A stretch of 61,795 nt of DNA, counting the filler, from Hausera hauseri (Eukaryota): NCBI GenBank assembly GCA_046269625.1. It is 10 parts of 10 records of this genome, joined end to end, with 100 filler letters (N's around TTAATTAATTAA, not from the genome) between each part and the next. Parts side by side here need not be neighbours in the genome. Positions count along the whole stretch, not along the records: positions 1 to 11,267 come from JBJURY010113320.1; 9 more parts are not named here. One strand, written 5' to 3'. The first letter of the stretch is position 1, and every line of letters starts with the position of its first letter. A program made the position numbers and the translations under genes. Below, piece after piece: positions 1-40,700 of the stretch. A model generated the notes under the pieces. That model was not told the DNA's origin and searched no databases. It saw nothing but the letters and a program-made list of their open reading frames with translations.

Positions 1-643
1 ACTGTCCTCTTAACTATATAGATTTCAAGTAGTGAATTTAATATCTTAGTGTAGTCTAATCGTTCTTAAGGATCGAAGAAAAACTATAGAAGAAATTAAG
101 TCTATTTAATAGAAAATATAACTTTTACCAAAAATTTTCGATACAACACTTCGATCGTTCACCACAGATTGATAATAACCAATAGTTCGGAATTTTCGCT
201 AATTTCGATACTAGAATGACGATTGTCTCTGGTTCCACTGCTTCGTTTAACTGCGACTGTATGAATTCCTTTCGGTAACTTTGTCGGACTTATCCTTCGA
301 TTTTCAACTCCAAAATTGTTCTGCTCTATTCTGAACCCACTCGCTATTTATACTTTCGCTTACGACGATTACGTCATTTTTATCGATTAAATTCACTTAT
401 TATCGGTTTTGTGTAATAATTTTGATTTTCCGATAATAATCAACTTTCATAGGTGTTTGTAAATTATTCTAATCTTGCTAATTCCATTTTGATTAGTAAA
501 TAACTGCTGATTAATAAATAACTATTATAATATACAATTCTAATGCGTACAGCTACGTAACAAAATAACTATTATAATCGTAGGATTCTAATATGTACAT
601 CTACGTAACACATTTTTACAATCTTTCTGTCATTTCTACAACA
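1..643 (-). repeat. 3' LTR of element A1 (distal end not defined)
   Basis: Minus strand starts TGTTGTAG right after a purine tract; TATA-like GTATAAATA at about 345-352; no 5' LTR present for comparison. Confidence 0.6.
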
Positions 644-655
644 ATTCTCCTCCCT
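644..655 (-). promoter_or_regulatory. Polypurine tract of element A1
   Basis: AGGGAGGAGAAT on minus strand directly before TGTTG. Confidence 0.65.
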
Positions 656-749
656 GAACGGCACTCTCGGATGTGCCCATTGCGTCAGAAGAGGTGCCGC
701 GCAAACGGTTCCTTCGTCCGCGTAGGTCCGCTTCCGAGTCTGATTCATC

Positions 750-1166
750 TCGCAGATATCACGGGTCGAAGGGGTATGACGTAGCTTCCGCTCTACATAC
801 TGGGCAGGTCGTTTTCCCGTTTTTCAAGATCCAGTATTAGTACCGACAGTATTTGTGGGTGCAATCCTTATTATCCAATACCACAAATCCTTGGAATAGA
901 TTTACATCGCAAACGGGGCATTCCTCTTTTTCGTTTGTGTCTATGTCTACAAGGTTTTTGTCCACCTCAATGTGTTCAAATACGAGTCCCTTTCTATCTT
1001 TGTATAAATATCTATATAATCGTTTTTGTTTAGGGTCTATAGAGCTTTTCTTGGGGTCATCTGACACGGTAACCAATGTCCATTCAACGATTTCTTGTTT
1101 ATCCAAGTCGGCTATTCCGGTTCTCTTGTATTGTCTCTTAAGTTGCACTCGAACTTGGGTATCCAC
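750..1166 (-). pseudogene. C-terminal RING-finger (C3HC4-like) segment of the A1 3' accessory ORF
   Basis: CPVC...CTHKYCRY*YWILKNGKTTCPVCR; last Cys pair continues in the same frame past a premature stop at 837-839. Confidence 0.75.
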
Positions 1167-2723
1167 TGGGATAGTTGATTGGTTCCTTTTTGCGACTGGA
1201 ATATCGGGTTTTGCTCTTTCTTCATTGATGGGTATAAGACTGCTAGTTGACGGTTTTATTTATTCAACTTGGTTCTTACTGGTCTTACTTTTCTTTTTAC
1301 TAATATATTCAAGGGAGGTAGTTTTCATCTTTTGTCCTCTCGGTAGTTTTCCAATATTCAGCTTTGGTCCTTCCATTGTCTTTTTAGGAAATAATCCAAT
1401 CTCAGTTTGGGTCTGACCGATTGATGGTTTTTGCTGATTTGCTGGACGTTGCGACTGGGTTGTTTTGAACTGTCACTTGGAAACTGTTATGTCCTTGGGA
1501 TTCAATTTGTCTATATATTGGATATTTACTAAATCCTTTTCGAAATTTTTGAATAAAGATTTTTGGATTGTTGTCGGACATTATTTTCTGTCTGGGTTCT
1601 CTTGGTTTCCACTCGTGTTCCCATCGTAATGAGATGTAAACATCTCTTATAAGTCGTGTTCGTTGACTTTCTGCCATTAACTTTGGACATCTGAATTGTT
1701 CGCCATTCATGGCTTCTAACAACATTTTGAACTGCGATTCACGTGATGCTGAAGGAAGTAAACATCCCCTTTTCCTCATTAGGGTGTTTTCTACTCGGTT
1801 TACAACCGTTGGATTGCGACTTAGTTCTCGAATCCCTTCTATATATTCCTGTCTAATTCCTAGCCTTTCTAGCATTTCGTGTACTCTGAATCCGGTTACG
1901 ACGAATCCGTATAAGCGATGGCTTATGTCTTCTTGAATTCCTAAAAATCTTTACCCTTTTCAAGTTGTAGTTTTGTGATTCCGGTAATGTCGGCAAATGT
2001 ATCCTTTATTTTAATTCAAGGTGCGATTATTTTGTTTATTATTTCCTCTCCGTTTATACTTCGGATGGAGACTTCGATTGGGGTGTATCATCCATCATCC
2101 ATTTTTCCATAATTTACGGCTAAGATTCGAATATTCCGGCCGTCAGGAACTAGTCTGTAAGATTCTCTACTTTGTTAAATCTCATCTTCCGAGGGCTTCT
2201 GCATGCATAACAGGGGTGGTAATGGTCTCATTATTTCAGTTCACAAGGTTAATTCGAACATTAGTTTGGTCGGAAGTTCGGCGACTCTGAATTATAATGC
2301 ATAGTCCATGAGACTATGACAACACAGCTCGTATGTACTAAATTTACACTGTTGATCTCTGTGTATTTCAGGATTGTCTTACGATTCTGTACTGAATTTC
2401 TCCATCAGCGACATGTATGTATAATTGCTGATACGTTGGTTCATACGGAATCATATCTCTCAAAAGGTATGCTCGTGCATCCTTCGGACTTCACGTCGCG
2501 TATAATCGAATTAGTCGATTGTCCTCTAGACCCCATTTCAATCCATTCGGTATTCTGCTTTCTTGATCGATTTCTGCATAAGTTTTGTTTTTTAGATTTT
2601 CTTCAATTTTGGGATATAAGCTTTTGGTTGTTGGTTTGAGAACTGTTACGCGTTGCTGCAGGAAGTCATCGATATCGTAACTGAAACTGTGTGCTGGTTC
2701 TTCGGCTTTTCGGCCATATTCTG
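1167..2723 (-). pseudogene. A1 3' accessory ORF of unknown function (fragments 2491-2745 and 1402-1875), probably expressed by splicing
   Basis: Co-oriented ORF pieces starting at a TTTTATTTTAG acceptor; start is homologous to the region after 40244 in relative A2. Confidence 0.5.
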
Positions 2724-2894
2724 CTAAAATAAAAATAAAGGTCAATCCTAAGACAGATCATCGTTTTCAAACAAAACATTTTCTCTGTCTGATGACAGGA
2801 TAACCCGATCTGTAATTGTCAGGTTATGCTATCATAAAGTTTGTTTTGGTACCCTTTTTCCCGTTTATCCCTCTGTTGATTTGTACGTCACTTA

Positions 2895-4118
2895 TTACAG
2901 TTTTTTGGAAACTAAGAAAATCGTCGCTGTTAATATGATAAGAACGAAAATTGACAAACTTATTATAGCTATCATCGGTAAATTGTTCGTTTTAATCAAT
3001 TTTTCCGTGGTGATTGCATTTCGAGTTCTCATTTCTTTATATTGCATTACTTGCACCTCGTCGCTTAAGGTTCGAACCGTTAGGGTTTTGGACCTCCTAC
3101 CCTCTGCGGTAACTTGTACTATATAATCATTTTGTGGTCGTAGAGCTCTACACTCGGTTCCTTGACCATTTTTCCTTAAGATCACAATTTGGTTGGTATA
3201 CAAAGTACGACATATAACCTTAATTTTGTAGTCGAGTGCTTCTTCGACGTAAAATACAATTTTATCAGATCGCACCAAAATCTTAACGGGTATGTCTTCC
3301 AATTCCTTTTTGGTCAATTTACTTGTCGGGACGATGTTGGTAGTGAGAGTCGTAGTTGGAAAAGTAGATGGTTTTCTCGTAGATTTTGGGAACGGTAGTT
3401 CCCATATTACGTCCTTGGGGCGGTATCCTCTCAAGTAAATATTCGGCTCTTTTGGGTAAGTATTATACAGATCGAATTGTAATTAGTAGTTGTATCCTAA
3501 CGGCAACTTACCACGCGCAGTGAGCCGTCGGCGTGCAATATAGCAATATTCTGGGATGGGAGTTGAAGCATTTAATGGTATAAATCTATTTTGGTTATGA
3601 TTCGAATACATTGGTTTTTGAAGTCTTTAGAAATTTCTACAATGTTGAAATCTAAGAGTCTTTTAAATGGGTCGGTGTTTTGCGATATCTTGTCCGTCTT
3701 GTTTTGATTAGCATCGTTACGTTGATGCATTCTAATTTCGTACTCAGTAATTATATGGACTTGGGCTCCAGGCAGATTATAGAACACTTGGGATTTGTAT
3801 TTGTAGGTTAATTCAAAATCGCAACATTTTCGATTGGCGCCATACGGAAAGTCACATATCTTCATTGCGGAGCTATATTGGTCTACAATGATTATTTGAA
3901 ATGTGACGTGGTCCTTAACAGACTCGCATTTCTTGAACCATGCGCATGGTTTATTCCAGTCCATATTGTAGACTCTAAGTGACTGCAAATTTTGCATATC
4001 CGTACGTCTTTCTGCATATTGTTGCTTTTCAGTTAAAGTTATTGATCTTATCTTCGGTATGTATGAAGCGATTAATGACGGCAAGAACTATTCATACATA
4101 TGATTTCGGCTTTGTCAT
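2895..4118 (-). pseudogene. Second membrane protein of A1: signal peptide, Cys-containing ectodomain, Thr-rich stalk, FN3-like domain, C-terminal TM helix
   Basis: MTKPKSYV*IVLAV-LIASYIP leader; TFPTTTLTT stalk; FN3-like LRPQNDYIVQVTA; TM MIAIISLSIFVLIILTATIFLV followed by SKKL. Confidence 0.65.
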
Positions 4119-4149
4119 TATTGATGACGTTTTCTTTTCTTCCTCGGTT

Positions 4150-7100
4150 CGACTCAAGGTCTTTTGACTTGAATGCAGGTTATAGCGTTTATTGGGCCTT
4201 ATTTCCGTTTTAATCATTCTTTGGATTGATACTACTTCCGTGCCGTTTTATTAATGTAAACGGTAGTTGGTGCGGCTCTGATGACTTCGTAGGGTCCTCT
4301 GCCCGTTCGAGTGAGTTTCAGAGATATACCCGTCTGCTACGGGGTAGTGTACATAAATCCAATTTCTTTGTTCTAGGTCGTGTTGTTTAGCTTTCTTGTC
4401 GTATTGCTTTTTAAATTGTCCTTGGTATTCTTTGGATAACTCCTTGGCTATTTCCCAACATTGCTGTAGTCTCCTCTGTAGTACTTCGACAAAGTTTTTC
4501 TCTAGATCTTCTGTGTTCGCTATATACGGTATCATTCCTAAATCTGTGGGCAGAGCAGCTTCCCTGCCATACATCATAAAAATGGAGTGAAACCTGTTGC
4601 AGGATGCGGTGTAGTGTTTATGGCGAATTGCGTGCCTTCTAAAAATTCATCCCAGTCCTTTTGGTCCTTCGCAACTTCTGTTAATAAGATTCGTATAACT
4701 GTTGCGTTTATTCGTTCGACTATTCCGTTACATCGCGGATGGTAAGTCATTGAGGTTAATCGTTCAATTTCAACTATTTTGGTAATCCTTTCGAATAATT
4801 CACTCGTAAAGTTTCTTCCTCGATCTGTCAAAATTTGTTCCAGGGGTCCGTATCTACAGATAATTTTTGTTACCACGGTTTCTGCTAAAGTCTCGGCCTT
4901 TTGGTCCATTAGAGCCATTAGTTCAACAAAATGGGTTAACCGATCTATGCATGTCAGAATGTATCTGTTGTTTTTATGAGTTGTAGGCAACGGTCCTATG
5001 ATATCCATGGATAATTGCTTGCATCGGCCTGTCTGGCCCGTGTATTGGTTTAAGTTCCGGAATGTAGTTTTTCACCTTCCTCAATTTGGTTGCGCATACT
5101 TCGCAAGCGTTTACCCAATTCTTCACATCGATGTACACGCTCGGCCAGTTATACTTATTGAATATTCTTTCTAATGTCTTCTTCCACGACATGTGTCCCG
5201 CTAAATACGAGTCATGTTTGGCCATTAATACGTCTGTACGCAATCCCTTTGCTATGACTACTAATTTCCGTCTTTTTCGTCCATAATACAGTATGTTTTT
5301 ATGCTTCGTGTCTCCTGCTATGCAGTATTTGCGACCGTGTCTTTGGCATTGCCTCGTTTTCGACAAATTCGATGATCTGTTGTATAACCTTGTCCTTCTT
5401 TTGTTCAACCGAATTTTTAATTACTTTATACAGTGTGAGGGCTCGCTGTCTATCCATTAGCTCTTCGAGATGAGCTTTTTTCATTACCGTGATCGCGCTT
5501 TTTTTAGTTTTAAGCCTTGACAGTGCGTCGGCGTCGACATGTTTACTTCCTGGTTTGTACTGAAATTCAATATTGTACCGTGAGATTTCTTCGATCCATC
5601 TGTTAAGTCTGCACGTTGGGTTATCTGCTCTGCCTTTCAAGGTAGTAACTTCTTTGTGATCTGTAACAATTATAATCTTCTGTTCGTAGACGTATATGTT
5701 AAAATGTCGTAGAGCTTCTTCCACAGCCAACGTTTCTAACTCCGTAACCGAATATTTTTTTTCGGCTTTCTTTAGAGAGCATCCTCCGTATGCGATCGGA
5801 TGTTCCAAATCTTCATCTTCTCGTTTCTGAGCTAACTCTTACCCAATATCTTCTTTACTTGCATCCATCTAAATTATAAATGGTAAGTTAAAATCAGGAT
5901 ATCTTAAAACAGGTTCACTAATCAAGATTTTTTTCCTTTCGTCGAAAGCCCTTTGCTCGAGGTCGGTCAATTTCCATTTTCCTTTTTAAGCAATCGATAT
6001 AGATGCGGATTTATTTTTGAATTATCTGGCACATAAGTGGCATAGTATTCACATAAGTCTAACCAATTTCTTAACTCCTGATTTTGAGGTTCCTTACAAT
6101 CCGATATTTTACTTAGCAGTGATCTGTCAGGTTTGGACCCTCCTTTTCCGACTATATGTCCAAGATAAGATACTGCTTTCTGAGCCCATTTACATTTGGG
6201 GTTTAACTTCAATGCGGATTGTTCTATCCTCATGAGCTTATCTTAAATGTCCTTTAAATGTTCTCCTTCTGTCTTTGATGCAATCATTACATTGTCCAAA
6301 TACGCGAACGCGTGTTCCAGTCCCATTAACATCTTGTTCATCATTCGAGTAAAAGTGACTGGTCCAGTGATTATCCCGAATGGCATGACATTAAATTCGT
6401 ATACACCGTCATGCGTTTTAAATGCAGTTTTGTATCGATCTTCCTCAGTCTCTACCTGTCAGTATCCAGATTACAGGTCGAGTGTGGAAAGTCTATCTAG
6501 GACTTCTTTTACTGATGGTAACGGGAAAGAATCTTTCATAAATGTATTTAGCGCTCGATAATCGATACAAAATCGATGCTTTGTAGTACCTTTCTTGACC
6601 ATAAGTATAGGTGAATACCAAGATCTATAGCTTGGTCTAATTATGTCAGCCTTTAGCATACATTCAACTTCTTTTGTTATCTCAGGCCTTAAAGAGTGTG
6701 TGGGGGATATTTCGGCATCTTTTGATCCTCTAAGTCTTTCATCATTGGAACCTGACTTTTTCTTAAGTGGAATTGTTAGTCTCAAGGCTTTGGCTCTGCC
6801 AATGTCCTCTTCGTCTCTAGCGACGACCGAGCTATATTGACAAAGTAGTTCGTAAAATCGACAGTATGCTTCTGCTGAAAATTTAGTTTCGACGTGAGGT
6901 GGAAATTCGACACATTTGTAAAGTTTTTCTTCAATAGTTATTGACGATATTCTATACGTATAACCAAAAGTGGTATTGGCATACAGTTTGATCGGAGTGG
7001 GTGCATTATTCGCTATTCTAACGGGCACATGGTCCGTCGATACTCTTGTTAATACGTTACTGAGTACGATGTTTGGATTTAACGATTCCTTTGGTTCAAA

Positions 7101-7630
7101 ATACACTGGCTGGTCGTCATCTTGACGTATCTGACATATATTAATACCTCGGTTCTCAGTGGTATGTTCTGGTCCACTGGAATCCATACTTCTCCGAATT
7201 GCCTATATTTTGTGATTTTAACCCCTTTTATCGGACCGAGCTTTATTAATTGCCCTGCGTGGAAGTCTATAGCTATATTAGGTAATTTCCAGAACAGATC
7301 ACATCCTAATACTACATCATTTGTTATCTGTTCCATTACTGAGAATTCGTGGTGGAAAGATTGTCTCATTATATGGACTTCTGGTCTCCATCGGAATTTA
7401 CTTTTCGGCCATTGTCCAAAAGCTCCGACACTTTCTGGGTCTGTTGCTGGAGGTGGATATATTTTTTTGTGTAAGCGCTGCGGTATTGAATTATACTTTT
7501 TCAGTGATATTTCAGATCCAGTGTCTATTAATGCGTACACCTCCCAATCTTCCAACTGAATTTTTGCAAAGGGCCTACCTTCGATTATCGTACCATGGTT
7601 GGTGCTATCTTTGGACGTCGGACGGTTCAC
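4150..7630 (-). pseudogene. pol: Gypsy pol of A1 (protease, dUTPase-like spacer, RT, RNase H, integrase), frameshifted
   Basis: ALIDTGSEIS; FCIDYRALN; YLDN (decayed YLDD) near 6290; YSVTELETLAV and TDHK; HHCC motif HDSYLAGH...CEVC; DIIGP/TDRGRNF/GIVERIN; GPY motif RGPYEVI. Confidence 0.95.
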
Positions 7631-8160
7631 ACCTTGTAACCGTTGATAGTAACTTCGGTCGTTCCGTCTGGCTGATCAATTAGTTGTCTTAATTCGCCAA
7701 TTGGGTACAATTCATTACCTGTGCTATATATGTTTTCCGTTTCCTGACTTCTAATTGGCGGGTGGGTTTCTTGGTTTCGAAAATTCTGCGCTTCACGATC
7801 TCTCGAAAATGTTGATCGTATTTCGTTTGGTCTGGGTATTCTAGGTGAATAAGTTATATCGTAATCGTCGACTACTGAACGACGATGTGGAGCAGACGTT
7901 CTTTTCGTTTTGTGCATTTTGCGTAATACACCGTAGTGCTTTGTTTCTTCATAGGGATCCTCGAGGTTAAACGGTTCTCTATAGATACCCGTTTGGTATG
8001 AACACAGATTGTTTCTCAGTCCTCATAAATAGGTGCAGGCGGTGGAAATATTGGCAATGGAGGTTTAATAACGGAATAATTTTTGTGTCTATTCATCCTG
8101 GAGACGGCTCGTCATCGTCAGGGTTGTTCCTTCACGTCTTTACTCTTGTGAACTTGTGTT
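7627..8160 (-). pseudogene. Pro-rich linker between glycoprotein TM and protease, with late-domain-like motifs
   Basis: KPPLPIFPPPAPIY at about 8025-8065; YSPRIP; ELYPIGELRQL at 7681-7713; homologous motifs in ORF 52008-52769. Confidence 0.55.
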
Positions 8161-8165
8161 AGTAA

Positions 8166-10045
8166 TTAAATGTGCCTCCTTTTACGTTTCCGATTATGAT
8201 AACCAACATGACGCTCCACGTCCGCTTTCCATCCATTTTCTTTATAAGCCTTTAAGAATTTACCGAAGGGTGTGACAATAGCAGTTAAAATCTTACATGA
8301 GAATCCTGTCAAGGTGAAAATCTCGTATCCATTTATGATCGCTTGAATTATCGCTTTAACCAGCTGGATCAAGAAATAGATTACTAGAAATACTGTCGCG
8401 GCTTGTCCGAATATCAGAAATCTTCCCCAAATTTTATACAATATTTCTGTTGTTATTCTTTGATAGTAGTTGACACCTAGTAATGATTCCCATTTTGTTT
8501 GATAACGCGAATCTTCTAGTATTGTGTGTATTGTTCTGTTTAATTCATGTGTGCGTTGGCGTGTGAAAGCTAGAAATTATCTTAATGCCTTTACTTCCTT
8601 CGGTCGGTAAATACCTTTTGCGGCAGTGTTCTGGAACTTATCATCGGTTATTCCTTTTATTAGGTTCGTTCTCGTTAACTTGGTGGGTGGAGCAATTATA
8701 CCACCGTTTGGTAAACTTACCCAATCGGTTTCACTACGTCTAAATATTGGTTCGCCTAGGCTGGTCTTTAAGTCTCAAAATCGTTGGTTGGGTAGAGTTC
8801 GCCAGCAATACTCTAGTGATCGGTGTTACTAATCTTGGTATGTCCTGATATATTATTGGAAGTTCTTGTATACATCTCTTTTCTTCCACGTTAATAGGTA
8901 CATCCTTCTCATATTCATAGGTCAGAACTCCGCTCACTAGGCCAAAAACGCCTTCCTTCATTGGAATTATTGGTGATGCGAGCTCGGGATTGGCATATAT
9001 CAAAGCTAGTTTGGTTCTCATGACTTCTAAGTCTAATTTGCAGTCGTTTGTTATCATTTTGTGATATAACTCAGCTATTCCAGGCTGCCATTTGTAATAA
9101 AAATAGTCGCTGTTTTTCAGATAATCCTCAATCCGAGTAGCTTGAGTCTCTAGCTTAAATGTACTGGTTTTTATTTCAGTCTCGGCTACAAAGAACGCTT
9201 CGTAATTAGTGGCATACATTGCTACGTCACATCTGGTAAGTACGTCTTTACGAACTTTAATCCGTGGGCGTCGGAAATTAATATGGTGGGTGTAGGCTGT
9301 TCCGCTACAACCCCTCACGTTTTTGAATTTGTATTTGTATTACTTACGCAGCGTTTTCCTGTCGTTCCGTTAAACGTAAGTTCTTTAATTTTAATAAAAT
9401 TGCAATCGGCCTTGGCTGGAAGTTCCCAAATTACTACTGAACTTCTAAAACAGGTGCTGTCTTGGATATGGCAGTTGGTTTTCCGTATAGAGCTTAGTAA
9501 CGCTATGGAACATCACTTTTTCTGTGCGCATTTCAGTTTCGTAGAAATCCACAACTACTATGTTCGACTCTAATCCCCTTCCGGTATCATATTCTGCGCC
9601 GCTAGTGTCCAGTATGCATATCTAGTCGTCCTGCTGTTACTTTATACACTCTGATTATTTTTCCTTCTTGTATATCTAGTTCCATGCCATCCCATTTTAA
9701 CCTACCAGTTTCTCTAGCTTGTTTACAGTGTAGGCGTTCTAAGCTCATCAGAATTGGTGGGTTCGTTGGTTTAATTATAGACGAGTGTCCGAGTATTAGT
9801 CCACAATGGAAAATGCTGCGAGATCGTCACAACATATACTCTTCCGTCTAATGCGATTAATTCGCGCTGTTGATACAGTAGTAACTTTTCTCTTTTGTTT
9901 CTAACTTGTGAGGTCTCGCGTCTTCGCACATTTCTAGATCCATTAATGAATATCTTTGGCCCAGTTTGAATTTTTCGCAGTCGTATATCGTAACTGCCCC
10001 CATTTGTCTTATTAACATCATCACGGTCAAAAAATTAATTGACCG
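8166..10045 (-). pseudogene. env: Class III-type viral fusion glycoprotein (chuvirus G / herpes gB-like env)
   Basis: Signal peptide then IYDC; SIFHCGLILGHSSII...CKQARETG; YATNY; NDCKLDLEVMRTKLAL..ANP; RCIQELPI...TPITRVL; C-terminal FGQAATVFLVIYFLIQLVKAIIQAIINGY TM block, all typical of chuvirus-like G. Confidence 0.8.
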
Positions 10046-11245
10046 GTATGACGTGTTTCCTCTATTATTTTCGGTTAATTTCCGCAACATGTCTTTGACT
10101 CGGCAACTGTCAAAAAGGGCCTATGTCGATGTTTCTCCTCTTTTTCAAATAATTCTGACCAATTTACTTCTGACAGCTTTCCGCGCTAAACTAGTGGCTT
10201 TGTTATATTCATTTTCTCGAGCTGGATTTGTTTTAATGGCCAGATACAGTAGTACATTTCTTAACTCTTCTATGGTATTCTCTACCATAATTTTTTCGAT
10301 CACCGATTCATCGCTTAGGGTGCTTCTCGATAATTTACAGCGAAAGTTTTTCATTGTTCTGGCTGCACTTAATATAGATTTTTCTTTTCGACTAATATTT
10401 CGTCACACAGACTAGAGTGGTTTATTATGCGTATCAAATTTTTCATAAGTTCATTCAGCTCCTCGTTTTCTGCACTAAAGGTTGGTATGGACATTTGCCT
10501 CAAATCTCTAATTAAATCCCAGTTAAAATCAGTCTCTTCTTGTGCCTTTCGCGGTCTATCAACAGGACGCTTCTGTTTCGCTATAATTGGTACGGTCTCG
10601 CCAGACGGCACTAGATTCTTATCGTATTGTTCTTTGTTTTTGTCCGTTTGCAAGTCCTCAAAGTACATTGTCACATCTTGAACTCCCACGATTCGTCCTA
10701 CACTAATCTGTTTTAGCCTTCCTTGTGGCTTCTTCTTTTGTCTCCTCAATGGCGATCGTTACTATTATTCGATTCGTTTCACCTGGGATAATTCCGACGT
10801 CTATCAATTGTTCCAGTTCGTCTAATATTCTACCTCTAAAGTAAAGTCTATAGCCCAGTTCGCTTGCCCAATCATTACTCATTAGCCACTGTACCACATC
10901 TCTTACGAAAGAGCGCGTAGTTAACTCTTGCTCTTTTTCGTCCATCCAGTCCGATGATATTTTTACTTTAATTGCCTCTTCGGGTTTGGTCCTTAAAACT
11001 TTAGCATATTCCTTTATTAGAAGTTTCGGCGCGGCACTATAGATTGTACCTTCACTGGATAATTTAGTCAGAGTAGGAACTAGTTGTCTCAACTGATTTT
11101 CTGTAAGATTTACATTAATTAACTTAATTAAATCTTTCTCAGTTTGCTCTGAGTCCAGAAGCATTTCCACATTGAATCTCTGATTCGACGGGCATATCTC
11201 CGTTTCGTACAATCGTACGGGGGTTTTCGGATTTTCCTCAACCAT
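10046..11245 (-). pseudogene. N-terminal ORF(s) of A1 with a ubiquitin-like domain (10751-10975) and a possible degenerate capsid-like segment
   Basis: IKVKIS...VRDVVQWL...YRLYFRGRILDELEQLIDVGI...RIIVTI follows the ubiquitin beta-grasp pattern; IPTFSAENEELNELM weakly resembles a Ty3 CA start; 10145-10354 is in frame with the glycoprotein signal. Confidence 0.55.
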
Positions 11246-11267
11246 TGCGTCTAAATATGCATCCCAT

Positions 11268-11367
11268 NNNNNNNNNNNNNNNNNNNNNNNNNNNNNNNNN
11301 NNNNNNNNNNNTTAATTAATTAANNNNNNNNNNNNNNNNNNNNNNNNNNNNNNNNNNNNNNNNNNNN
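11268..11367. other. Artificial contig linker N44-TTAATTAATTAA-N44 (also 23686-23785, 27855-27954, 33082-33181, 37747-37846, 43521-43620, 47713-47812, 52809-52908, 56934-57033)
   Basis: Identical 100-bp structure nine times; core gives stops in all six frames. Confidence 0.98.
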
Positions 11368-11691
11368 GTCACACTATTGCAATCCATTTTTTACTTCCGT
11401 ACGTTTTTCGGCGCGGTTCTCATCCTGCAGTTTTCAAGCTACGTCAACAAATCATAAATCAAAACATCCAGCTCGTTCAGGAGAAGGGAGCTATGACTTT
11501 TGGTATTGGTGCAACTTTAGCTTTTTGAAATATTTAGCCTTTTCTCATAGAAAGTGAATTGATCTCATTTTACATCCTACGCTTCTTTCAGCTTCCTGGT
11601 GCAAATTTAAACCTTTTCTCAGCTACTTTCAGCTGTTTTTTTTCCAGCTGTTTTTTTTACAGGTGCAGTATTAATTTTATTTTTTTACCAG

Positions 11692-11825
11692 GTGCAGTGA
11701 AGTACCTAGAGTGCTCTGCTCTGACGCAGCGCGGCCTTAAGACGGTGTTCGATGAAGCCATCAGGGCGGTCCTGTGCCCCCAACCTCTCAAAAAGCCCAG
11801 GAGAAGGAAGTGCATCATATTGTAA
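11692..11825 (+). CDS. RAC1: Last coding exon of a Rac-family small GTPase (vertebrate-like); 3' UTR-like sequence to about 12130
   Basis: Phase-1 acceptor ttttaccag|GT; [29 protein letters not shown], polybasic tract and CIIL CaaX; exact Rac paralog uncertain. Confidence 0.85.
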
Positions 11826-12134
11826 TGGAGATCCAAAGCAATTAGAAAACACAGCAAGACCTCACCTTCTTGAAGGAGCAAAGATAAAAACGAGGTTCCT
11901 TAAAGTATTTTTTTTTATCCTATGTCCTGGCTAACATGAGCCCCTTTCAGACTTTGAATCTGAGCCCGAGAAGCCTTTTCCAGCACTGGTGACATGTGTG
12001 AACTGACCGAGACAGAATGGAGTGTTTGAAGCAGATTCACTGATACACCTCTGAACCACATATGATGGTAGTCACAGAGCTGAGATGGTGGGTATGTGTG
12101 AGGGCGAGCCAGCGCTCTGGCTCTTGTTGATTTG

Positions 12135-15100
12135 ATAAAATGATGTCAGAATCAGGTTTCGGTTAAGCTAAAATTTCGACTGTTTTAAGCTTATCGCGGA
12201 GTTTTTCGAACTGGTTAACAAGTTCTGATGTCCAATATATGAGCTTTTTATTCGGCCCTGCTCCTAGTTGAGTGAAAGGAGCATTTAACTGGCTACAGTG
12301 TGAGATGTATTTATGGACAAAATGTAAAGTCCCAAGGAAACTACGCATGTCAGTAGTGGTTTTTGGTATCTCGATGTTTCATAGATAGTGGATTCTATCA
12401 GGCTGTGAACTGTGATTGTCAGTTGTGATGACATGGCTAAAGAAATTCACCTTTTTCTGGAAGAAGGAACACTTAAAAAAGTTTACTTGCAAATTGCACT
12501 TGTGCAAGCTTTGGAAAACTAGTCTGAGATGTTCTTTATGTTGTTTGGGCAATGCGACTAGTATGTCATCAATGTACGGATATACAAATGGCAAGCCTGA
12601 AAGAACTGAATCAATGTGCCGTTGGAAAGTTTGTGCAGCGTTTTCTAAACCGAATGGCATGAATGCGTATTCGAAAAGACCCAAAGGTGTTATGATGGTC
12701 GTTTTGGGATGTTTTATGGTGTTACCGGTATTTGGTGGTAGGCTTTTTTAAGATCTATGTTTGAATAAATCTTAGTTTTGTGCAATGAATGTAATATGTC
12801 CTTAATCAAAGGTAGAGGATAAGCGTCCATGGTAGTGACATTATTTAGTTGGCGATAATCGCCGCATGGGCGGAATGTGTCATATTTTTTCGGGATGACG
12901 TGAAGTGGTGATGCCCACGGTGATTTTGACCGTTTTATTATGCCAGCTTGTTTGATTGCAGAGAATTCCGCTTGGACTGCCTGTCGACGCCGTGGTAAAA
13001 GTGGGCGGGGTTTTTGCCTAACGGGCCTAGGATTTTCTGTGATGATATGATGAAGCGTCGTGTTAGCTGGTCGAAATGCTGGGTCTTTTTTATTGCGTGA
13101 AAACAAGACTTGGTTAAATATTGTTGCATTTCCGGGCTAAATGTAGTAAAGGCTGTTGTTATTATAGCAGTGGACAGATTGGATTTAGTGTCAGAAACGC
13201 TAGAAATTGAGTCGCCTAAATTGTCCTTGTCAATGCCTTTTGTTCTTCTATTACTGGACTGAAACAAATACGTTGGACTATTTATATTTGTATTAATGAC
13301 GTTCTTATTTGCGTCGGCTGATGGTTCTTTTAGTATCGATTTTATAGGCCAGGTAGGTTGCGTGATTTGTTGGTTATTTGTAGAGGTAGGTTTTGTGGAA
13401 CTGCTTTTGATGATCCGACGTTGTTTACAATCGACAAGGAGGTTGTAGAAAGATAAGAAATCAGATCCAAATATTAGAGATTGTGCATCGGCAACGATGA
13501 ATGTCCAATTGAAAATGTCGGAAAATGGTGGTAAAGTGAATGAAACCTTGGACGTGCCAAAAATGTGTAAAGTTTGGCCGTTAGCTGTGTATAATTTATT
13601 GTTAGATGGTGAGATGAATGGTGTTTTGATAGATGGTGGTAACAAAGAAACGGCAGTCCCAGAGTCAATTAGGAAGTTGATGGGTTGATTGGGTTTTGAC
13701 GTTAAGGAGGCTTTTAATGTGAAAACAGCGTAGATATGGCTATTAGATTGAAGGCGTTTACCTGTACAAGTATGTGCTGAAACATCTGGCGGCTTTGTCA
13801 ATTTTTTGGATAGTAGGATTTGGGGAGTCGGGAGAATTACGATGGAACTGGTTAAGTCGACTGGAAAACGTGCAACGGTTGATGCAGTTTCGGGCTTTAT
13901 TGCTGAACCTATTATAGTAAATACAAACGATATCGGATTTTTGAAAAGCTGGTGTAAAGAATTTACACCCTAAGCAACATTTTTTGGAATGATCCTTGAA
14001 TTTAGTGTGATTATAGCACCCCATATGTCGAGTAGGGGACCTAGCAGATCTCAAATTTTGCGATGAATCACGGCTATGATTGGGTGTGAATCGACCTCGT
14101 CGCGGTATGGATAAATTGCCCAGTTTCGAAGTTAAAGCAGAAATGGCTTGGTGTACTGCCGTGTTTTCAGCCCGAAAAGCGCTTATTTGGTTATTCAGCG
14201 CTAAGATTTCAGTGTTACATGGTGTCAAAGGTGGTTGTAATGTGGCTGCGATGATAGGAGTATAGTGTGCATCTAACATTTCATAGCTTTTATCAACCAA
14301 TTGTGCTAACTTTTCTAGCGTAGCGATGTCTTCAACGATGGTTAGTAAAGCGTGTATTTCTTTTGGTAACAATTGGAGGAAATATATACGCAATAAGTCG
14401 GCACTGTTTGTCTGGTTTATTCCTAACTTGATTAAGTGGGTTAAAGATTTTTGTAAAAACTCTGAGGGTTTCTGATTTCTTGTTGAATTATCATTAAAAT
14501 ATTTTTGGATAACGTTATCCAGAGAAGGCTCATTGAGTTTAAAAACGGCTTTAGATAGTGTCTCGTATGGATCTATGGTTTGGAAGATTTTGGAAAGATT
14601 TGGGAGCAGTGATTTAATAGTGGCTGGCAAGAGTATTAATAGACTATTTGCTTTGAAAAAAGGATCAGTAATGTTATTTGATTTTAGCCACTGTGCATGG
14701 AATTCTAGCCATGTACGACTGGAATGTTGTCTATCTGTAAAATAGTCGACACAAGGGAAATTGTCCAAAGAGGATGTTTCAGGTAGAACAAAAGGGGCTG
14801 CTTTAGAGGAAAGTTTATGGTAGGAATATCGGTGAGTTCCTGAGGTTCGTTTAATGCAGATTTGGTGTCGGAGCCACCGAATAGACGTAGACATAAAGTT
14901 ATTATTAGTGGTGAAGGTGGGGATAAAAGGATGATATTAGATCGGAATAATGAAGATGATATCCGTTTATGCTTAGTGTGTAGCCTTTTAAGTTAATGCG
15001 ATGAGCCAAATCTTAAAACAAATCTGCTACTGTTGCTTTAGTGTGTGCGGTGTGTGTGAATGTTTATTTTGAAGGAAAAAAAAATAGGGAAAAAGGTGAG

Positions 15101-15255
15101 TGCCATGTCAGGGGCATAGTGCGCTACCGGGAACACGATTGCGCCAAAACCACAGGTGCTGAGATTCGGGTAGTGTTAACGGTGGGTCAAACGCCGGAAC
15201 TGCCACTTTATAATTTTCACCTGCTGGCCTGGACGCACTGGTCTTTAGACGCATT
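12135..15255 (-). mobile_element. Gypsy family B copy 1 (leader, gag 13805-14894, PR, RT; truncated before RNase H)
   Basis: Gag with CYNH...CCLGC...CINRC motifs; FLIDSGTAVS; SPWASPLH, PCGDYRQLN, YIDD. Confidence 0.92.
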
Positions 15256-16030
15256 GTAAAAACGTATTTTTCTTCGGAAGTTTGACGTATTTGGTATATT
15301 GTATTATTTTTAATGACGAACAGAAAACAAGTTAAATATTGGTCTAATTCAGAGTCTTGTCCAGACAAAGTTGAATAAATATCGACCAAGTAAATAAAAT
15401 CGTCAAAATCGATGATTTGGTTATCGCGAGAAATTACTAGAATGCGACTTATCAAGTCTTGACAACACAACACCGGGGTTTTCGACCAACATTATGACGC
15501 GATCTGAACCGCAAATAATATCGTGTACGTTCATTTTGTAAGGGAAAAACTCCATCGTCAAAATGGGAATGTCATCCCGTAATTCAGTGTTTAAAACGTT
15601 TTCATTGTATATATTGGAATTTTCGTTGATATTAAACTCAACAATATTATTGGAAATTCTAATAGAAGTCGGAAAATTACCGCTAATTATTTCCTTTTGT
15701 AGAAGTGTAAATTTTGAAGTGTTTGGGTAAGTGGTCATTGGAAAATCCAAAAATATGATGTTAACACATTGGAAAAATGGTGAGAGTTGGTAACAGAAAA
15801 TGTGTGTAAGTATTCAATCAGTTTTATACAAAAACTAAATCTCTGCCAAGATGTTAAGTCGTTTCTGTAAACTACAAAATCTTTTAAATGCCTAATAAAT
15901 TTACTGTGTTCATAATAAGTGAACAATGCATAATAAAGGGAAATAGGAAATTCACTGACCTTAAACTGTATCGGCGTATCATTAAATCTGGTAATTCCAA
16001 AGCGTCTGTGAGAGTACGACAAAGATTTTT
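15256..16030 (-). pseudogene. Intronless fragment of an unidentified protein gene, fused between Sec7 fragment and Gypsy leader
   Basis: Overlapping ORF pieces 15108-15473, 15421-15750, 15735-16022; duplicated at about 18850-19620. Confidence 0.45.
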
Positions 16031-16034
16031 TTGA

Positions 16035-16200
16035 AATTTTGCTGATGACACAAAATCCTTTCGGAAAAAGTCAAACTGATCCACGTATGCATACATGACC
16101 TCGATATTATACTTGTTATTTTCACCAAGAAAATCTCCAATGGCCGTTTTTTCAAGTCGTTCGTCTTTGTATAAAAATTCCGCAATGTCATCCGATAAGT
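16035..16200 (-). pseudogene. Sec7 domain fragment of a BIG1/BIG2-type (ARFGEF) Arf GEF
   Basis: DIAEFLYKDERLEKTAIGDFLGENNKYNIEVMYAYVDQFDF..KDFVS. Confidence 0.85.
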
Positions 16201-16399
16201 CAGATTTTGAGGACGCTGTCGGAAGATTGTGAATCGTCGAGTACAATGACCTTGATATCAATGTAATGTAATTCAACTATTCTCGTTTGACTTTTGGAGA
16301 CGTCGGTTATTTTCGTCATTCGTGCGTTCAGTTCACAGCTAACTAAAATATTCTGAGACTTGTTCACTTGTAAACTGAAAGTAAAATTCTTTTTCCCAT

Positions 16400-17845
16400 C
16401 CAGTCTTTATTGTAGTATTCATTTATATGTTTTCTGATAGCATGTCGCTTATACATTACCACTGATCCAATGTATCTGTAATCTTTGGTCAGGTGATTTA
16501 TGAATTGGAAAAAGTTGTCGAGGTATTTGATAAAAGTAAAATAACACTAAAAATTTTTTTGTTCGACTCCAGCATCCCGTGAGTTTATCATTGTCTTCAT
16601 TATCGCTGTCATTTAAACCATTTTCTTTAATCAACAATTCCTGTTTCACATTCAATTGCAAATCATGGATCCTTACTGGAACAGTGTGACATGACTCTTC
16701 AGTAATAGTTGGTGACATTCTTGGCTTGATGTTAGATTTATTGATTGTCTTACTCGGTACAGTGCTATTAGATCGATTGTTGAATGGTCTATTAGAAGGC
16801 TTAGTCGAAAAATTGATGTTCGCAACCGGTTCGTAAGAACTGCCTACTGACTCCGTTTTCGGTGTAACAGAACGCATCATGCCTTCTTTCAGTTGGAAGC
16901 CTGCCAAACTCATTGATTTGGTTAACATGTAATGCTGAAGATCGTATATGCCAGACACGGACATGGATATATTTCGTTGATCGGTATCTTTTTGACTATC
17001 ATCATGTCTGTTATTTCAGGATCTTCGCAGAATAGAAAATAGTCCCCAGATGTTAGCACAAGATAATGTTTGTTTGGCAGCGGCTTTCCATAATTTTCAC
17101 GAGTACTTTCAATATGCCGGATTTTTCTTTTGATTTTGGCAAATAATCTTTCTTCTTGAATCATTTCCTCTTGCAATGTCGCAGTCATTTTCCGATTAAT
17201 CAAGAATGCTCCTCTCGACACAAATTTACTTTTGATTTTAAGAGCCAACACTACTTGAAAAAGGACTTAGTCGTGAATACTTTGCGTTGTAAAATCAAAA
17301 GCATGAAACACAAAATATCTCCCCAAAAGTCATTATTCATACTGGGACGATATAATACGTCAAATTTCGAGACCATGTCATGCCATTTGTGCATTGGATT
17401 TCGATGAGTTTGATCAGCCAACAGTAATTACGATTATTCAGTGCATTGAGATAAACACATCCTACTAGATGAAGGCCACATTTGATGAATATAACGGTGT
17501 AATTGTAGAATAGGATTATGTTCCATGATGATATAATATACTTCCGCTTGTTTTGCAACATTTGAAATCCGATCCAGAAGTAAACGGTACTTAAAATCAT
17601 GTATCCCAATGAAAATATTGTTGGTTTAATAATTCCGAGAACAAATACGGCTGTCAGGCAAAACCAGTAAAATTGATAAAAAATAAAGTATTTTATATAT
17701 TCAACGAGTGATGATTTTTCACAGATAAAATCCTTCTCTTCAATATAGGGCATATCATTGACTAAGGTTGGAATGTTTCGTGCACCTTTGTAGTCAAATG
17801 ATTGTTTTTCAATACGAAATACGTGGTACTGAAAATGCTTTGTTC
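16400..17845 (-). pseudogene. PIEZO: Intronless internal fragment of a Piezo mechanosensitive channel
   Basis: FYWFCLTAVFVLG...IFSLGY...WNIILFYNYTVIFIK...CWLIKL; DILCFMLLILQRKVF; SRGA; SGDYFLF. Confidence 0.88.
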
Positions 17846-27745: not shown

Positions 27746-27954
27746 CTTCAGTAGGCAGAAATGTCCACTCTACCGCACTTCTCTGATTGGTCCGTCGGCC
27801 ACTTTTCCTCACGTAATAGGCTATTCTGAACATTTCACAAAAAATTTCAGATGANNNNNNNNNNNNNNNNNNNNNNNNNNNNNNNNNNNNNNNNNNNNTT
27901 AATTAATTAANNNNNNNNNNNNNNNNNNNNNNNNNNNNNNNNNNNNNNNNNNNN

Positions 27955-31467: not shown

Positions 31468-31609
31468 ATATTGTTATTCATTGTTGTTCATTGTTTAATA
31501 AATGTTGTATAGAAATATCGTGGGATATAGGATAAGGCCGAGTAAAACTAAGTAACTACTATATAGGTTAAAACCAACTAATTTTGTAACACATTTATTT
31601 AGTAACAGT

Positions 31610-37846: not shown

Positions 37847-38140
37847 CGATCGAACAACAAGTTCTACATAGTCTTCTTTGGACAAAAAGTATACATTCTC
37901 CAGTTCATTTAGAAATTTGACACAATCTATTTTCCCACTGCATATTTCATTTGTCAGCCGTTTAGTTTCAGCTTCTAAATCTATTTTGTAATTTTAAGTA
38001 TATAGATAATTTGGGAGAACAGAATTAAAATCATACCATTTGTCGTACTATTCCTTGAAACAACGCCATTTTATTTACACACCAATATTTATATCCAACC
38101 ATCACAATTAAAACAAAAAAAATTTGGCACTAAATTCAAC
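37847..38140 (-). repeat. Dispersed repeat with coding-like content, second copy at about 45250-45470 (+)
   Basis: Shared GAAATATGCAGTGGGAAAATAGATTG and GAAGACTATGTAGAA; both translate to EICSGKID. Confidence 0.65.
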
Positions 38141-38299
38141 TTTTTCAAACCACTCCCAATCCACACAGTTCACGCGTTTATGTGTATCCACTTTGTAACT
38201 GTGTCGCCTATCTCGGCCCTATTAAATGTGTATGTGTGTATTGTTTTTTCTACTCCATAACTCATTCACGAACCACTTCGTTTCTTTCCTTCCCTGGGG

Positions 38300-40700
38300 G
38301 CTTTGTGCCAGCCCCAAACTTCACAAGAAAAGTAATTGCGGAAATATCGAAAATATTTCAAATACTACAGCTGAAAACAACCCCGTATCATCCGCAAACT
38401 AAAAGAATGATAGAAAAATTTAATGGAACCTTAACTAACATTCTGGCAACTATGGTTTTAGCACGGGAGGGTTAGTGGTACGAATACATTAAACCTTGTT
38501 TATTGGCAATTTGAACACAATTCATCCCGCGACGAAAGAAACTTTATTTTATTTAATGTACCTCAGGGATTCTCATATGCCAGTCGACATAGATTTCAAA
38601 TTGCCTGTGTCTCGTCTAAAGGATATGGAGTATAGAGTTATTAGAGGAGAAACCTGCATGTGTGGAATCTGACTTCACGACATATAAAATTTGCCAAGAG
38701 TACAAAGATAGCTATGATAAAAAAGCAAAGTTGCATAACTTTAAACCAGGAGAAAAAGTTATGCTACATACGCGTTTGAGTAAGAATAAAAGAACGCCAA
38801 AATTGGATGGACCATATAAAGGCCCTAACACAATTCAGAAGGCAGATGAAACTAACATTTTCCTCAACAAAACTAAGAGGAATAAAACAAACCCAATAAA
38901 AGTCCACGCGAATCGATGCAAACCAGCCCCACCAGAATCGAGACAAAGAAATGAAAATTTTAATTCAATAATAATAGCAACACTCACAATGCTAAGCTTA
39001 GTAACTTGTGTATAGGCTGAGGCTTTAGATGTACAATATAAAGTCTATCAAGTTGGACAATATTCTTGAATAAAAGTTACGGCCAATCGAAATCTAACAA
39101 CAGAAGAATATATATACATATACCTTCATTATATAAAGCAACACCAGAAAATTGTGATCTATATTATAATCATTCAACCCACATCTATTGTAGACTTTCA
39201 TTTGGTACATCATATAGAATCCAATACGCTACTGCAAAAAGAAGTCAGTGGTATAAATCGTACTTCTCATATCCTGGTTCGACTTACTATTTCTACCAAC
39301 CATATTTTATACTAAAGTCATAAAAAATGGACCGTGTGTGACGGCAGAACCAGAAGCTTTAATAACAAAGTATCGAATTGTGAAATACTCGATCGTAAAC
39401 AAAACGTATACCATAGAATGTAAACCAAATTATCGAAACCCATGTTTATGCTGTCCCTTTTCATTTTTAAACAATATCAAATATATTATCGAACTACAGT
39501 CAATGGTTATACGTGGTCGACAGCGTCAGATGGACCCGAAGTAATGATAACATCTCCGAAAATAACAACTACCTCTACCCGGACGACATTATCTACTATA
39601 ATACCTCCAGAAAAAGTGGCAACTGGGATTAAAAGGATTTCCAAAGAACTGGGCGTGATAATCCAATCAACGGCACACTCCTTGATTATTATAGTATCCG
39701 ACCTAACGAATACTAATGTGAAATTTGAATGCTTAATTCACAACAAGATGGCTAGTGAAGGAGTATTAACTCCGAACGAAGCAACATCGGCCTGCATGTT
39801 CCTGAAANNNNNNNNNNTACGAAGAAAATTATAAAAACAACTACTATTGAAATTGTTGAAGAAATTTCTAATAAATATTTCTGGATGGTTATTACGCTAG
39901 GTACCTTTTTAGCATTGATAATTATAATACTATTGATAATAATCTATTGTTCTAAAGACGTAGAATGCGCAAGACCCCAAATATAATACGACAATTAAAA
40001 TTATTAAGGGAAGGTTCCCACAATGAAAACCTTCCCAAGCTGAAAAGCTACTAAATCTTGAACGGCAAACTCGACCATTAATGGACGTTGCACTATGTGT
40101 GCACACATAATAGATGAAGGCGCAAAAATTTTAGCGACATACAAAAAAATAATTATGAAAAATCTCGGGTTGCAAAGCTTTACGCAACCTACCATAAAAT
40201 TTTTTAAAGATTTCCATGGTTAGTATTAATATATTTTCTTTCAGTTCACGAAGGTCCAGAAACAGTACAGAGGGCCAAATCCTTCTATTACAACATCGCC
40301 ACTAACCTCAATTCAACCGAGAAAAAAGATTATATGTATTATGAGAAAGCATCTCTGAGACCAAACAATCTTAAGGGACATCTCGTTTCTCAGAGAACTG
40401 CCATCATCTTCAAATTACCTAATACGTAGACAAAATTATCAGATCTAATCGATATTTGGCGAAAACGACAGCAGTTTACATATCAGTGCTGAAGGCTACC
40501 TTACAATTAATAAGCAGAGCTTACAGAAGCAATATAACAGACTCATTTGATGTAATTCCCTTCTTTGCTATTCGATTAGACCAGCGTCTATATAAAAACG
40601 CCACAATAATATTAAGACCTTTTGGAGGACCAAGCCTGTTGTTTCTGTATCATGAGAATAAAGTCCAATTCGTTCAAAAGTGAATCACAACGACAAAATT
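38300..40700 (+). mobile_element. Fragment A2, relative of A1: integrase C-half, in-frame signal peptide, FN3-like TM protein, spliced downstream ORF
   Basis: TTPYHPQT..IEKFNGTL; KLDGPYKGP...VHANRCK; SIIIATLTMLSLVTCV; KITTTSTRTT stalk; TM FWMVITLGTFLALIIIILLIIIY at 39879-39947; acceptor at 40244. Confidence 0.75.

What the first reader, a model, noticed from the sequence alone, without database searches (positions are those of the whole stretch)
2895..4118. Second envelope-like FN3 membrane protein directly after integrase, conserved in two diverged elements
Seen: both A1 and A2 (38960-39960) have signal peptide, ectodomain, Thr-rich stalk, a KEL-led beta-rich domain with two Cys, and one TM. 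In A2 the signal is in frame with the INT C-terminus. Inference: a captured host-receptor-like attachment or immune-decoy protein working with the fusogen, i.e. a two-component entry system that is unusual for an LTR retrotransposon.
Basis: partly seen in the sequence, partly recalled or inferred. Interest (0 to 1): 0.72.

Follow-up and report, generated by a model that had tools for sequence, protein, structure and literature searches.

The report
Receptor-like surface protein in enveloped retrotransposon
A decayed invertebrate retrotransposon that already has a herpes-like fusion protein also carries a gene for a cell-receptor-like surface protein, which may help it attach to or disarm host cells, though the second copy and the function are unproven.

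Summary
The A1 gene is real but broken (3 frameshifts, 3 premature stops) and runs 4118-2819, not to 2895. It follows integrase in a Ty3/gypsy element ordered gag, gB-type env (Pfam PF24664), pol, ORF-X, a DnaQ-like ORF, a RING ORF and a probable PPT/3' LTR. One intact homologue was found among 1.84 billion proteins (P0002, 479 aa; 33% and 38% identity over the two halves); it keeps the signal, the TM and a C-terminal YxxI motif. Its low-confidence model matches tandem FN3 receptor ectodomains (Foldseek E about 2e-4; VIA Z 8.1 for domain 1). ORF-X thus has three probable FN3 domains, not one, and is receptor-like, not a fusogen. 'Conserved in two elements' is only weakly supported. A1 and A2 do not align by BLAST; A2 has the same layout and a weak profile match (1 of 300 shuffles reached it). 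A2's contig has no fusogen, its in-frame signal may be decay, and KEL is not conserved. No donor or binding partner was found. Best guess: an attachment/adhesion partner for gB (0.4); rival: a cytokine-receptor decoy (0.3). I found no description in print.

The parts
2819..4118 (-). ORF-X of element A1: signal peptide, three probable FN3 domains, Ser/Thr stalk, one TM, short basic tail ending in YxxI. Broken by frameshifts near 4080, 3585 and 2905 and by premature stops at 4094-4092, 3485-3483 and 2890-2888
   Evidence: Six-frame reading; colinear match to intact P0002
3730..3997 (-). Domain 1, FN3-like, Cys-bearing; the best-supported fold
   Evidence: Homologous to P0002 75-163: pLDDT about 60-76, VIA Z 8.1, rmsd 2.9 over 84 residues to an FN3 monobody
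3400..3660 (-). Domain 2, an internal repeat of domain 1. The Cys pair of P0002's second repeat is not retained in A1
   Evidence: P0002 D1 vs D2: 0 of 500 shuffles as high; A1 D1 vs P0002 D2: 0 of 500; tblastn
3315..3385 (-). Ser/Thr-rich stalk
   Evidence: 10 of 20 residues S/T; P0002 11 of 20
3060..3311 (-). Domain 3, membrane-proximal, FN3-like, two Cys
   Evidence: Both Cys kept in P0002; Atlas feature hits are fn3 clusters at 0.86-0.89, a lead only; pLDDT mostly <50
2910..2966 (-). Transmembrane helix
   Evidence: KD 2.89; helix with pLDDT 78-95
2819..2905 (-). Cytoplasmic tail with a conserved C-terminal YxxI motif
   Evidence: Ungapped 28-residue match to the P0002 tail, 0 of 5000 shuffles
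10100..11267 (-). Probable gag, cut by the contig end
   Evidence: Position and frame fragments only; no Pfam hit of note; inference
8170..10090 (-). gB-type / Monjiviricetes class III fusion glycoprotein (env), broken, between gag and pol
   Evidence: PF24664 E 1.2e-15 and 3.4e-11, 1.5e-19
4130..7700 (-). pol in Ty3/gypsy order PR-RT-RH-INT, broken
   Evidence: RVP 5.9e-5, RT_RNaseH 1.5e-21, rve 5.1e-12; RT by tblastn to the window's other RTs, E 3e-22
1402..2757 (-). ORF-Y, broken; part resembles a DnaQ/DEDD exonuclease
   Evidence: Top PDB sequence hit DnaQ 8h18, E 0.39, a weak lead; no Pfam or NCBIfam hit
720..1472 (-). ORF-Z with a C-terminal RING finger
   Evidence: zf-RING_2 E 0.0048, below the curated cut-off, plus other RING models
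1..655 (-). Probable polypurine tract (655-645) and start of the 3' LTR (about 642), with a 48-bp tandem repeat at 516-610
   Evidence: Purine run followed by TG right after the last ORF. 4 of 20 purine runs in the contig are followed by TG, and this is the only one outside the coding span. Repeat. No second LTR to compare
38951..39986 (+). A2 ORF-X-like gene, same layout, broken, with a 10-N gap at 39808-39817; remote homology to A1 likely but weak
38290..38950 (+). C-terminal half of A2 integrase; nothing of the element survives upstream in this contig
   Evidence: 34% over 88 aa to A1 integrase; upstream 37850-38290 is a different repeat shared with 45100-45460

Best explanation
ORF-X is an accessory gene of a gag-gB-pol Ty3/gypsy element (an 'ancient errantivirus'). 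It encodes a type I membrane glycoprotein: a signal peptide, an N-terminal helix, two Cys-stabilised FN3 repeats, a mucin-like stalk, a third FN3 domain, one TM and a tail of about 28 residues ending in a YxxI motif. SHOWN: the gene, its position, the intact homologue, the internal repeat and the tail motif. SUPPORTED by a low-confidence model: the FN3 fold (about 0.85). INFERRED: it is made as its own protein and is sorted by the tyrosine motif to the membrane where gB and capsids gather. There it acts as the attachment/adhesion component that tethers a particle, or the producing cell, to a target cell, probably germline, so that gB can fuse. This is the division of labour of herpes gD/gH-gL with gB. 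The copies in this window are dead.
For: Inside an element with a class III fusogen and upstream of a probable PPT/LTR. Same A-rich coding-strand composition as gag, env and pol (A 0.373 against 0.366-0.380), which fits long residence in the element. Full-length colinear conservation at 33-38% identity, including TM and tail motif, implies selection on a membrane protein. Fold matches include adhesion and guidance receptors (fibronectin, contactin, NCAM, Robo, LAR, Tie2). Chary and Hayashi (PMC13524379, Discussion) note that herpes gB needs gD, gH and gL and that entry by gB-type errantiviruses is unexplained. A second element has a protein of the same layout at the same position.
Against: No binding, localisation or expression data. 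Co-occurrence with gB is seen in 1 element only: A2's contig has no gB and P0002's neighbourhood could not be read. Related class III fusogens (rhabdovirus G, baculovirus GP64) attach and fuse alone (recalled). The top Foldseek rows also include cytokine receptors and tissue factor, and the neighbouring DnaQ-like and RING ORFs look like a host-manipulation cassette. The model is weak (mean pLDDT 46.8), and Pfam gives no FN3 hit.
Confidence: 0.4

Rival explanations
1. Immune decoy: a tail-less cytokine-receptor mimic on the producing cell. It binds a ligand or receptor chain and internalises it through the YxxI motif, damping JAK/STAT-type signalling, as one part of a 3' anti-defence cassette with an exonuclease and a RING ligase.
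For: Top Foldseek rows are gp130 D4-6, tissue factor, IL-23/IL-12 receptor chains and IFNAR1. Cys pairs in the repeats recall class II cytokine receptors (recalled). The tail is too short to signal. Drosophila Et/Lat is a short receptor that blocks JAK/STAT (PMC4751595 abstract). Neighbouring RING and DnaQ-like ORFs.
Against: No WSxWS motif in P0002 (read by eye). Identities to receptors are 7-18% and indistinguishable from those to adhesion FN3s. No sequence hit to any solved receptor at E<=10. The neighbouring ORF calls are weak.
Confidence: 0.3
2. Superinfection exclusion or receptor masking: the protein covers or removes a host receptor used by this element or by competing viruses.
For: Membrane anchor plus a conserved endocytic-type motif; retroviral precedent (recalled).
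Against: No direct evidence; intracellularly inherited elements gain little from it.
Confidence: 0.1
3. Passenger or misassigned gene: a host FN3 gene fragment trapped in or beside the element with no role for it, with P0002 being a host gene and A2 a look-alike by convergence.
For: P0002 is a singleton of unknown context. The LTR boundary rests on a PPT-like run alone. A1 and A2 do not align by BLAST. Signal, stalk and TM are generic features.
Against: Intron-free and colinear with P0002. Starts flush with the integrase tail in both A1 and A2. Composition matches pol. No host family among 1.84 billion representatives, unlike a normal animal gene.
Confidence: 0.12
4. ORF-X is translated as the C-terminal part of the Pol polyprotein and released by signal peptidase, as Env is in Gag-Pol-Env belpaoviruses. 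This is a rival on expression and is compatible with any of the functions.
For: In A1 the frame from about 4247 through the integrase tail to ATG 4118 has no stop; in A2 38620-39012 is open into the signal. Atlas virus is a single Gag-Pol-Env polyprotein (PMC9094657 passages).
Against: Both copies are frameshift-ridden, so frame coincidence is cheap. P0002 was called as a free-standing 479-aa protein with Met at the position of the A1 ATG. A2 has an alternative ATG at 38951.
Confidence: 0.2

Closest known systems
GAG-ENV-POL, HSV/gB-type Ty3/gypsy errantiviruses of Nematoda, Bryozoa and Platyhelminthes (Chary and Hayashi, PMC13524379)
   Same: Gene order gag-env-pol, class III gB-type env, gypsy pol order
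   Different: Only three ORFs are annotated there; 'fibronectin' and 'FN3' occur 0 times in the main text. A1 has about 3.5 kb of extra ORFs after pol. By my arithmetic on their table, the 6 of 10 bryozoan rows with LTRs leave 1.1-2.2 kb unannotated after pol, so they may hide such genes.
Bdelloid LTR retrotransposons with ORF3 (DEDDy exonuclease, GDSL esterase, small TM proteins; PMC5408684)
   Same: Accessory ORFs after pol, including exonuclease-like and TM proteins
   Different: No FN3 protein ('fibronectin' 0 hits); one ORF3 per family rather than a fusogen plus a three-ORF cassette
Planarian Burro giant gypsy elements (PMC6431247)
   Same: env between gag and pol; extra RING and host-regulatory domains
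   Different: Extra domains lie inside a 5,000-aa polyprotein; no FN3 or Ig membrane protein is mentioned ('fibronectin' and 'immunoglobulin' 0 hits)
Atlas virus / Cer13 belpaoviruses with Gn-Gc env (PMC9094657)
   Same: An LTR element with separate attachment (Gn) and fusion (Gc) proteins, so two-component entry is not without precedent
   Different: Belpaoviridae, class II fusogen, and both chains captured together from a phlebovirus-like donor; here a class III fusogen and a receptor-like protein lie 4 kb apart
Tandem-FN3 cell-surface proteins (gp130, tissue factor, contactin, Robo, Tie2, LAR) and short decoy receptors such as Drosophila Et/Lat
   Same: Fold, type I topology, Cys pairs
   Different: 7-18% identity, no Pfam fn3 hit, no WSxWS, no signalling tail; no specific donor can be named
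MDG1-group sORF2 (PMC11952523) and Oikopleura Tor Env (PMC4402516)
   Same: Element-encoded membrane proteins tied to soma-to-germline transfer (abstracts)
   Different: sORF2 is a short FAST-like fusogen in env-less elements; Tor Env has fusion-protein features. ORF-X is large, receptor-like and additional to a fusogen

Membership tests
Ty3/gypsy (Metaviridae), element A1 | pol order PR-RT-RH-INT | tested here: met
   Pfam RVP, RT_RNaseH, rve in this order; RT by tblastn
Ty3/gypsy (Metaviridae), element A1 | Paired LTRs, PBS and PPT | tested here: inconclusive
   PPT-like run plus TG at 655-642; the 5' end is off the contig, so there is no second LTR or PBS
Ty3/gypsy (Metaviridae), element A1 | RT phylogeny within Metaviridae | not tested
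   No reference RT set was on hand
GAG-ENV-POL gB-type errantivirus | gB-type env between gag and pol | tested here: met
   PF24664 at 8170-9340, upstream of the protease; gag inferred from position only
GAG-ENV-POL gB-type errantivirus | gB domains I-V, fusion loops, cysteine bridges | not tested
   Gene is broken; not folded
FN3 domain proteins | Seven-strand FN3 beta-sandwich, domain 1 | tested here: met
   P0002 model: seven strands over 77-161; 45 of the 50 listed VIA rows are FN3-containing by title or my recall, best Z 8.1; 40 Foldseek matches at E<=0.001. Z about 8 is near the tool's background for common arrangements
FN3 domain proteins | FN3 fold, domains 2 and 3 | tested here: inconclusive
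   D2 is a sequence repeat of D1 and is spanned by tandem-FN3 matches. D3: Atlas fn3 hits below 0.9, pLDDT <50
FN3 domain proteins | Pfam fn3 (PF00041) at the curated cut-off | tested here: not met
   No fn3 hit for window pieces or P0002
Class I cytokine receptors | WSxWS motif and cytoplasmic Box1 | tested here: not met
   Absent from P0002 (read by eye; motif definitions recalled)
Viral fusogens (F or gB type Env) | Fusion peptide or loops, heptad stalk, family profile | tested here: not met
   No Pfam fusogen hit; only the signal and one TM are hydrophobic
Viral attachment glycoproteins (works like gD, Gn, H/HN) | Present on particles, binds a cell receptor, needed for entry | not testable with these tools
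   Needs experiments
A2 as a member of the A1/P0002 ORF-X family | Significant sequence homology | tested here: inconclusive
   None by tblastn; profile 1 of 300 shuffles, 1 of 216 regions; pairwise best 2 of 500 among 35 pairings

The most novel reading that the evidence does not exclude
An old lineage of gB-type errantiviruses has a herpesvirus-like, multi-protein entry apparatus. It pairs a class III fusogen with a host-derived triple-FN3 attachment protein and carries a 3' cassette (exonuclease, RING ligase) like the accessory genes of complex viruses. A1, A2 and P0002 are three deeply diverged members, and the unannotated space after pol in published bryozoan and flatworm elements holds more.
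Probability: 0.3. Interest if true: 0.82.

Novelty: new variant of a known kind. Interest (0 to 1): 0.6.

Why it matters
How gB-type errantiviruses enter cells is stated to be unknown, because herpes gB needs partner glycoproteins and none has been described in these elements (PMC13524379). ORF-X is a concrete candidate, and an intact natural copy (P0002) exists to test. It also predicts where to look: the unannotated 1-3 kb after pol in published gag-env-pol elements. If it is a decoy instead, it would be a receptor mimic in a retrotransposon, a strategy known mainly from large DNA viruses (recalled). In either case these elements would be closer to complex viruses than the three-ORF picture suggests.

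Tried and rejected
HOMOLOGUE SEARCHES. A1 C-half against longer proteins: 0 of 494 candidates. P0002, near lengths: only itself among 3340. Alignment against shorter proteins: 0 of 12, but only lengths of 30-93 aa were searched, so this is nearly uninformative. GTDB genomes: 0 of 84 pattern matches.

FAMILY AND STRUCTURE SEARCHES. Pfam, NCBIfam, PHROGs and PDB-sequence searches of P0002 gave nothing meaningful. Folding the window's own C-half alone failed (pLDDT <50 over 1-164); Foldseek gave no match at E<=0.001 and VIA matched only the TM helix. The viral fold library gave generic phage and giant-virus FN3 proteins and one cyprinid herpesvirus protein (E 6e-4), naming no donor.

REJECTED. 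KEL as a conserved motif (absent in P0002). 2895 as the gene end. ORF-X as a fusogen. A1-A2 integrase identity (34%) as proof of one lineage, since the unrelated integrase at 43033-42728 gives 33% to A1, although A1-A2 scores higher on the shared stretch (135 against 86 or less).

NOT RUN. dN/dS (no DNA for P0002; A1 and A2 are unalignable). SignalP, DeepTMHMM and HHpred were not available; hydropathy was used instead. No complex prediction was sent.

LITERATURE. Nine searches bore on this. None listed a paper describing an FN3 membrane ORF in an LTR retrotransposon, but only the top rows were seen, subscription papers such as Sacco 2022 were not readable, and RepBase was not searched. One look-up fetched an irrelevant paper.

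Full report
SETTING. The window is ten pieces joined by N-spacers, so A1 (1-11267) and A2 (37847-43520) are not neighbours. It looks like repeat-rich invertebrate DNA: gypsy fragments, polinton-type DNA polymerase fragments and scattered host exons. The host was not determined.

ELEMENT A1. [quoted passage not shown] This is the GAG-ENV-POL, gB-type arrangement that Chary and Hayashi report from nematodes, bryozoans and flatworms (PMC13524379). After integrase come ORF-X, a broken ORF-Y whose best PDB sequence match is a DnaQ exonuclease (E 0.39, weak), and ORF-Z ending in a RING finger (E 0.0048, below cut-off). A purine run followed by TG at 655-642 looks like the PPT and 3' LTR start; it is the only one of 20 purine runs that lies outside the coding span. 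No second LTR is available, so the boundary is probable, not proven. All genes are broken.

THE GENE. Six-frame reading shows a signal-like start at ATG 4118, an ectodomain, a Ser/Thr stalk, a two-Cys beta domain and a TM. A search of 1.84 billion representatives with the N-half returned 1 hit, P0002 (479 aa, E 5.9e-22). The C-half, which was not the query, matches the same protein at 38% (E 7e-38); the N-half matches at 33%. The true tail of A1 lies in another frame, ends at 2819 and aligns without gaps to P0002's tail, both ending in YxxI-T (0 of 5000 shuffles). The gene is therefore 4118-2819, with three frameshifts and three premature stops. Its composition equals that of gag, env and pol. 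P0002 is a singleton on a 4939-nt contig whose other content I could not see; further searches found no relatives, with the limits listed under Tried and rejected.

FOLD. P0002 has an internal repeat (D1 against D2, 0 of 500 shuffles; D3 weaker, 14-15 of 500 against D2). AlphaFold2 on a 3-row alignment gave mean pLDDT 46.8, with D1 at about 60-76 and seven strands. Foldseek found 40 PDB matches at E<=0.001 among 500 counted. The listed rows are FN3 proteins, mostly tandem-FN3 ectodomains: gp130, tissue factor, fibronectin, contactin, Robo3, Tie2, LAR (best 1.7e-4). VIA's best row is an FN3 monobody (Z 8.1, rmsd 2.9, 84 residues), and 45 of 50 listed rows are FN3-containing by title or my recall; the tool warns that Z near 8 can be a common arrangement. 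Atlas features point to fn3 for the whole protein and for D3, but below 0.9. Against this, Pfam finds no fn3, and the window's own C-half did not fold. My reading: FN3 is likely for D1 and, by repeat, D2, and plausible for D3. No donor can be named.

A2. Only the C-half of an integrase survives, preceded by an unrelated repeat. The following gene has the same order of parts. It gives no tblastn hit to A1 at E<10. A profile of the P0002 and A1 repeats, built without A2, gave A2 39147-39242 the best score outside A1 in a whole-window search, nearly tied with a chance hit (6.4 against 6.2 bits, E 0.47). In the targeted test, 1 of 300 shuffles and 1 of 216 other regions reached its score. A2's second segment places Cys where P0002 D1 has them (2 of 500, best of 35 pairings). 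I put remote homology at about 0.7. KEL is not a family motif. The in-frame signal is real in both copies, but an alternative ATG in A2 and the free-standing P0002 argue that it may be decay. No gB-like sequence occurs outside A1.

MECHANISM. The protein is not a fusogen. Its shape is that of a surface receptor with a stalk and a short tail carrying a conserved tyrosine motif of the YxxPhi sorting type (motif class recalled). In an element whose fusogen belongs to a class that needs partners in herpesviruses, an attachment or cell-contact role is the simplest reading (0.4). A cytokine-receptor decoy within an anti-defence cassette is nearly as good (0.3); Et/Lat is the model. Receptor masking (0.1) and passenger status (0.12) are weaker. 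Every functional step is inference.

COMPARISON AND NOVELTY. The element type is known; accessory ORFs after pol are known from rotifers and Burro; a two-chain envelope is known in Atlas virus. I found no report of an FN3 membrane protein in an LTR retrotransposon in nine searches (top rows only, open-licence library). In the published table, 6 of 10 bryozoan rows have LTRs. By my arithmetic these leave 1.1-2.2 kb unannotated after pol, assuming coordinates run along the element. 4 of 10 bryozoan and 8 of 9 flatworm rows list no LTR within the 3-kb flank. This is room for such genes, not evidence of them.

WHAT I SAW OF EACH PAPER. PMC13524379: abstract, term searches, sections 8, 9, 14, 15 and 22 whole, first parts of 5 and 6, supplement 1 (part 1 of 34 plus Bryozoa and Platyhelminthes rows); figures and the other supplements unseen, and they could annotate extra ORFs. 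PMC5408684, PMC9094657, PMC6431247: passages. PMC6338049: part 1 of 4. PMC11952523, PMC4751595, PMC4402516: abstracts. Sacco 2022: nothing, known only through citation.

VERDICT. A real, apparently undescribed receptor-like accessory gene in a gB-type errantivirus. The fold is supported, the second copy is uncertain, and the function is open. Interest 0.6; new variant of a known kind.

Noticed in passing
window 720-1472 (-): ORF ending in a RING finger inside the element, just before the probable PPT; possible element-encoded ubiquitin ligase
   Followed up: partly
window 1900-2270 (-), within 1402-2757: DnaQ/DEDD-exonuclease-like stretch (PDB 8h18, E 0.39), recalling the DEDDy ORF3 of rotifer elements; catalytic motif not recognisable
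   Followed up: partly
window 11268-11367 and eight similar sites: N44-spacer-N44 joints: the window is ten concatenated pieces; 10-N gaps also lie at 18581, 36472, 39808 and 58040
   Followed up: yes
window 12132-17000 and 18089-22686: Large inverted duplication (85-96% complementary) of a gypsy gag-pol region, whose arms include a Sec7-domain fragment (15887-16276), with a Piezo fragment (17340-17843) at the centre
   Followed up: no
window 26336-31470, 34300-36240, 46190-46860, 54100-56730: Several decayed polinton-type protein-primed DNA polymerase B genes with an endonuclease VII domain
   Followed up: no
window 11690-11830 (+): Last exon of a Rho-family (Rac-like) GTPase ending in a CAAX box, read by eye; name recalled
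   Followed up: no
window 37850-38290 and 45100-45460: Shared non-coding repeat (77-78%, inverted) that abuts the truncated A2 integrase
   Followed up: partly
window 41900-43500 (-), 22000-23680 (+), 57490-59640 (+): A second gypsy family with closely related integrases, distinct from A1 and A2, with no envelope hit among the ORFs scanned
   Followed up: partly
window 40000-41400 (+): A-rich sequence after A2's membrane gene with fragmentary frames, no Pfam hit and no match to A1's ORF-Y or ORF-Z; may be further accessory genes
   Followed up: partly
window 49996-50430 (-): ABC-2 transporter membrane domain fragment, probably a host exon
   Followed up: no
P0002 residues 42-73 and 165-190: Predicted helices before domain 1 and between domains 1 and 2; the first could oligomerise the ectodomain
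   Followed up: no
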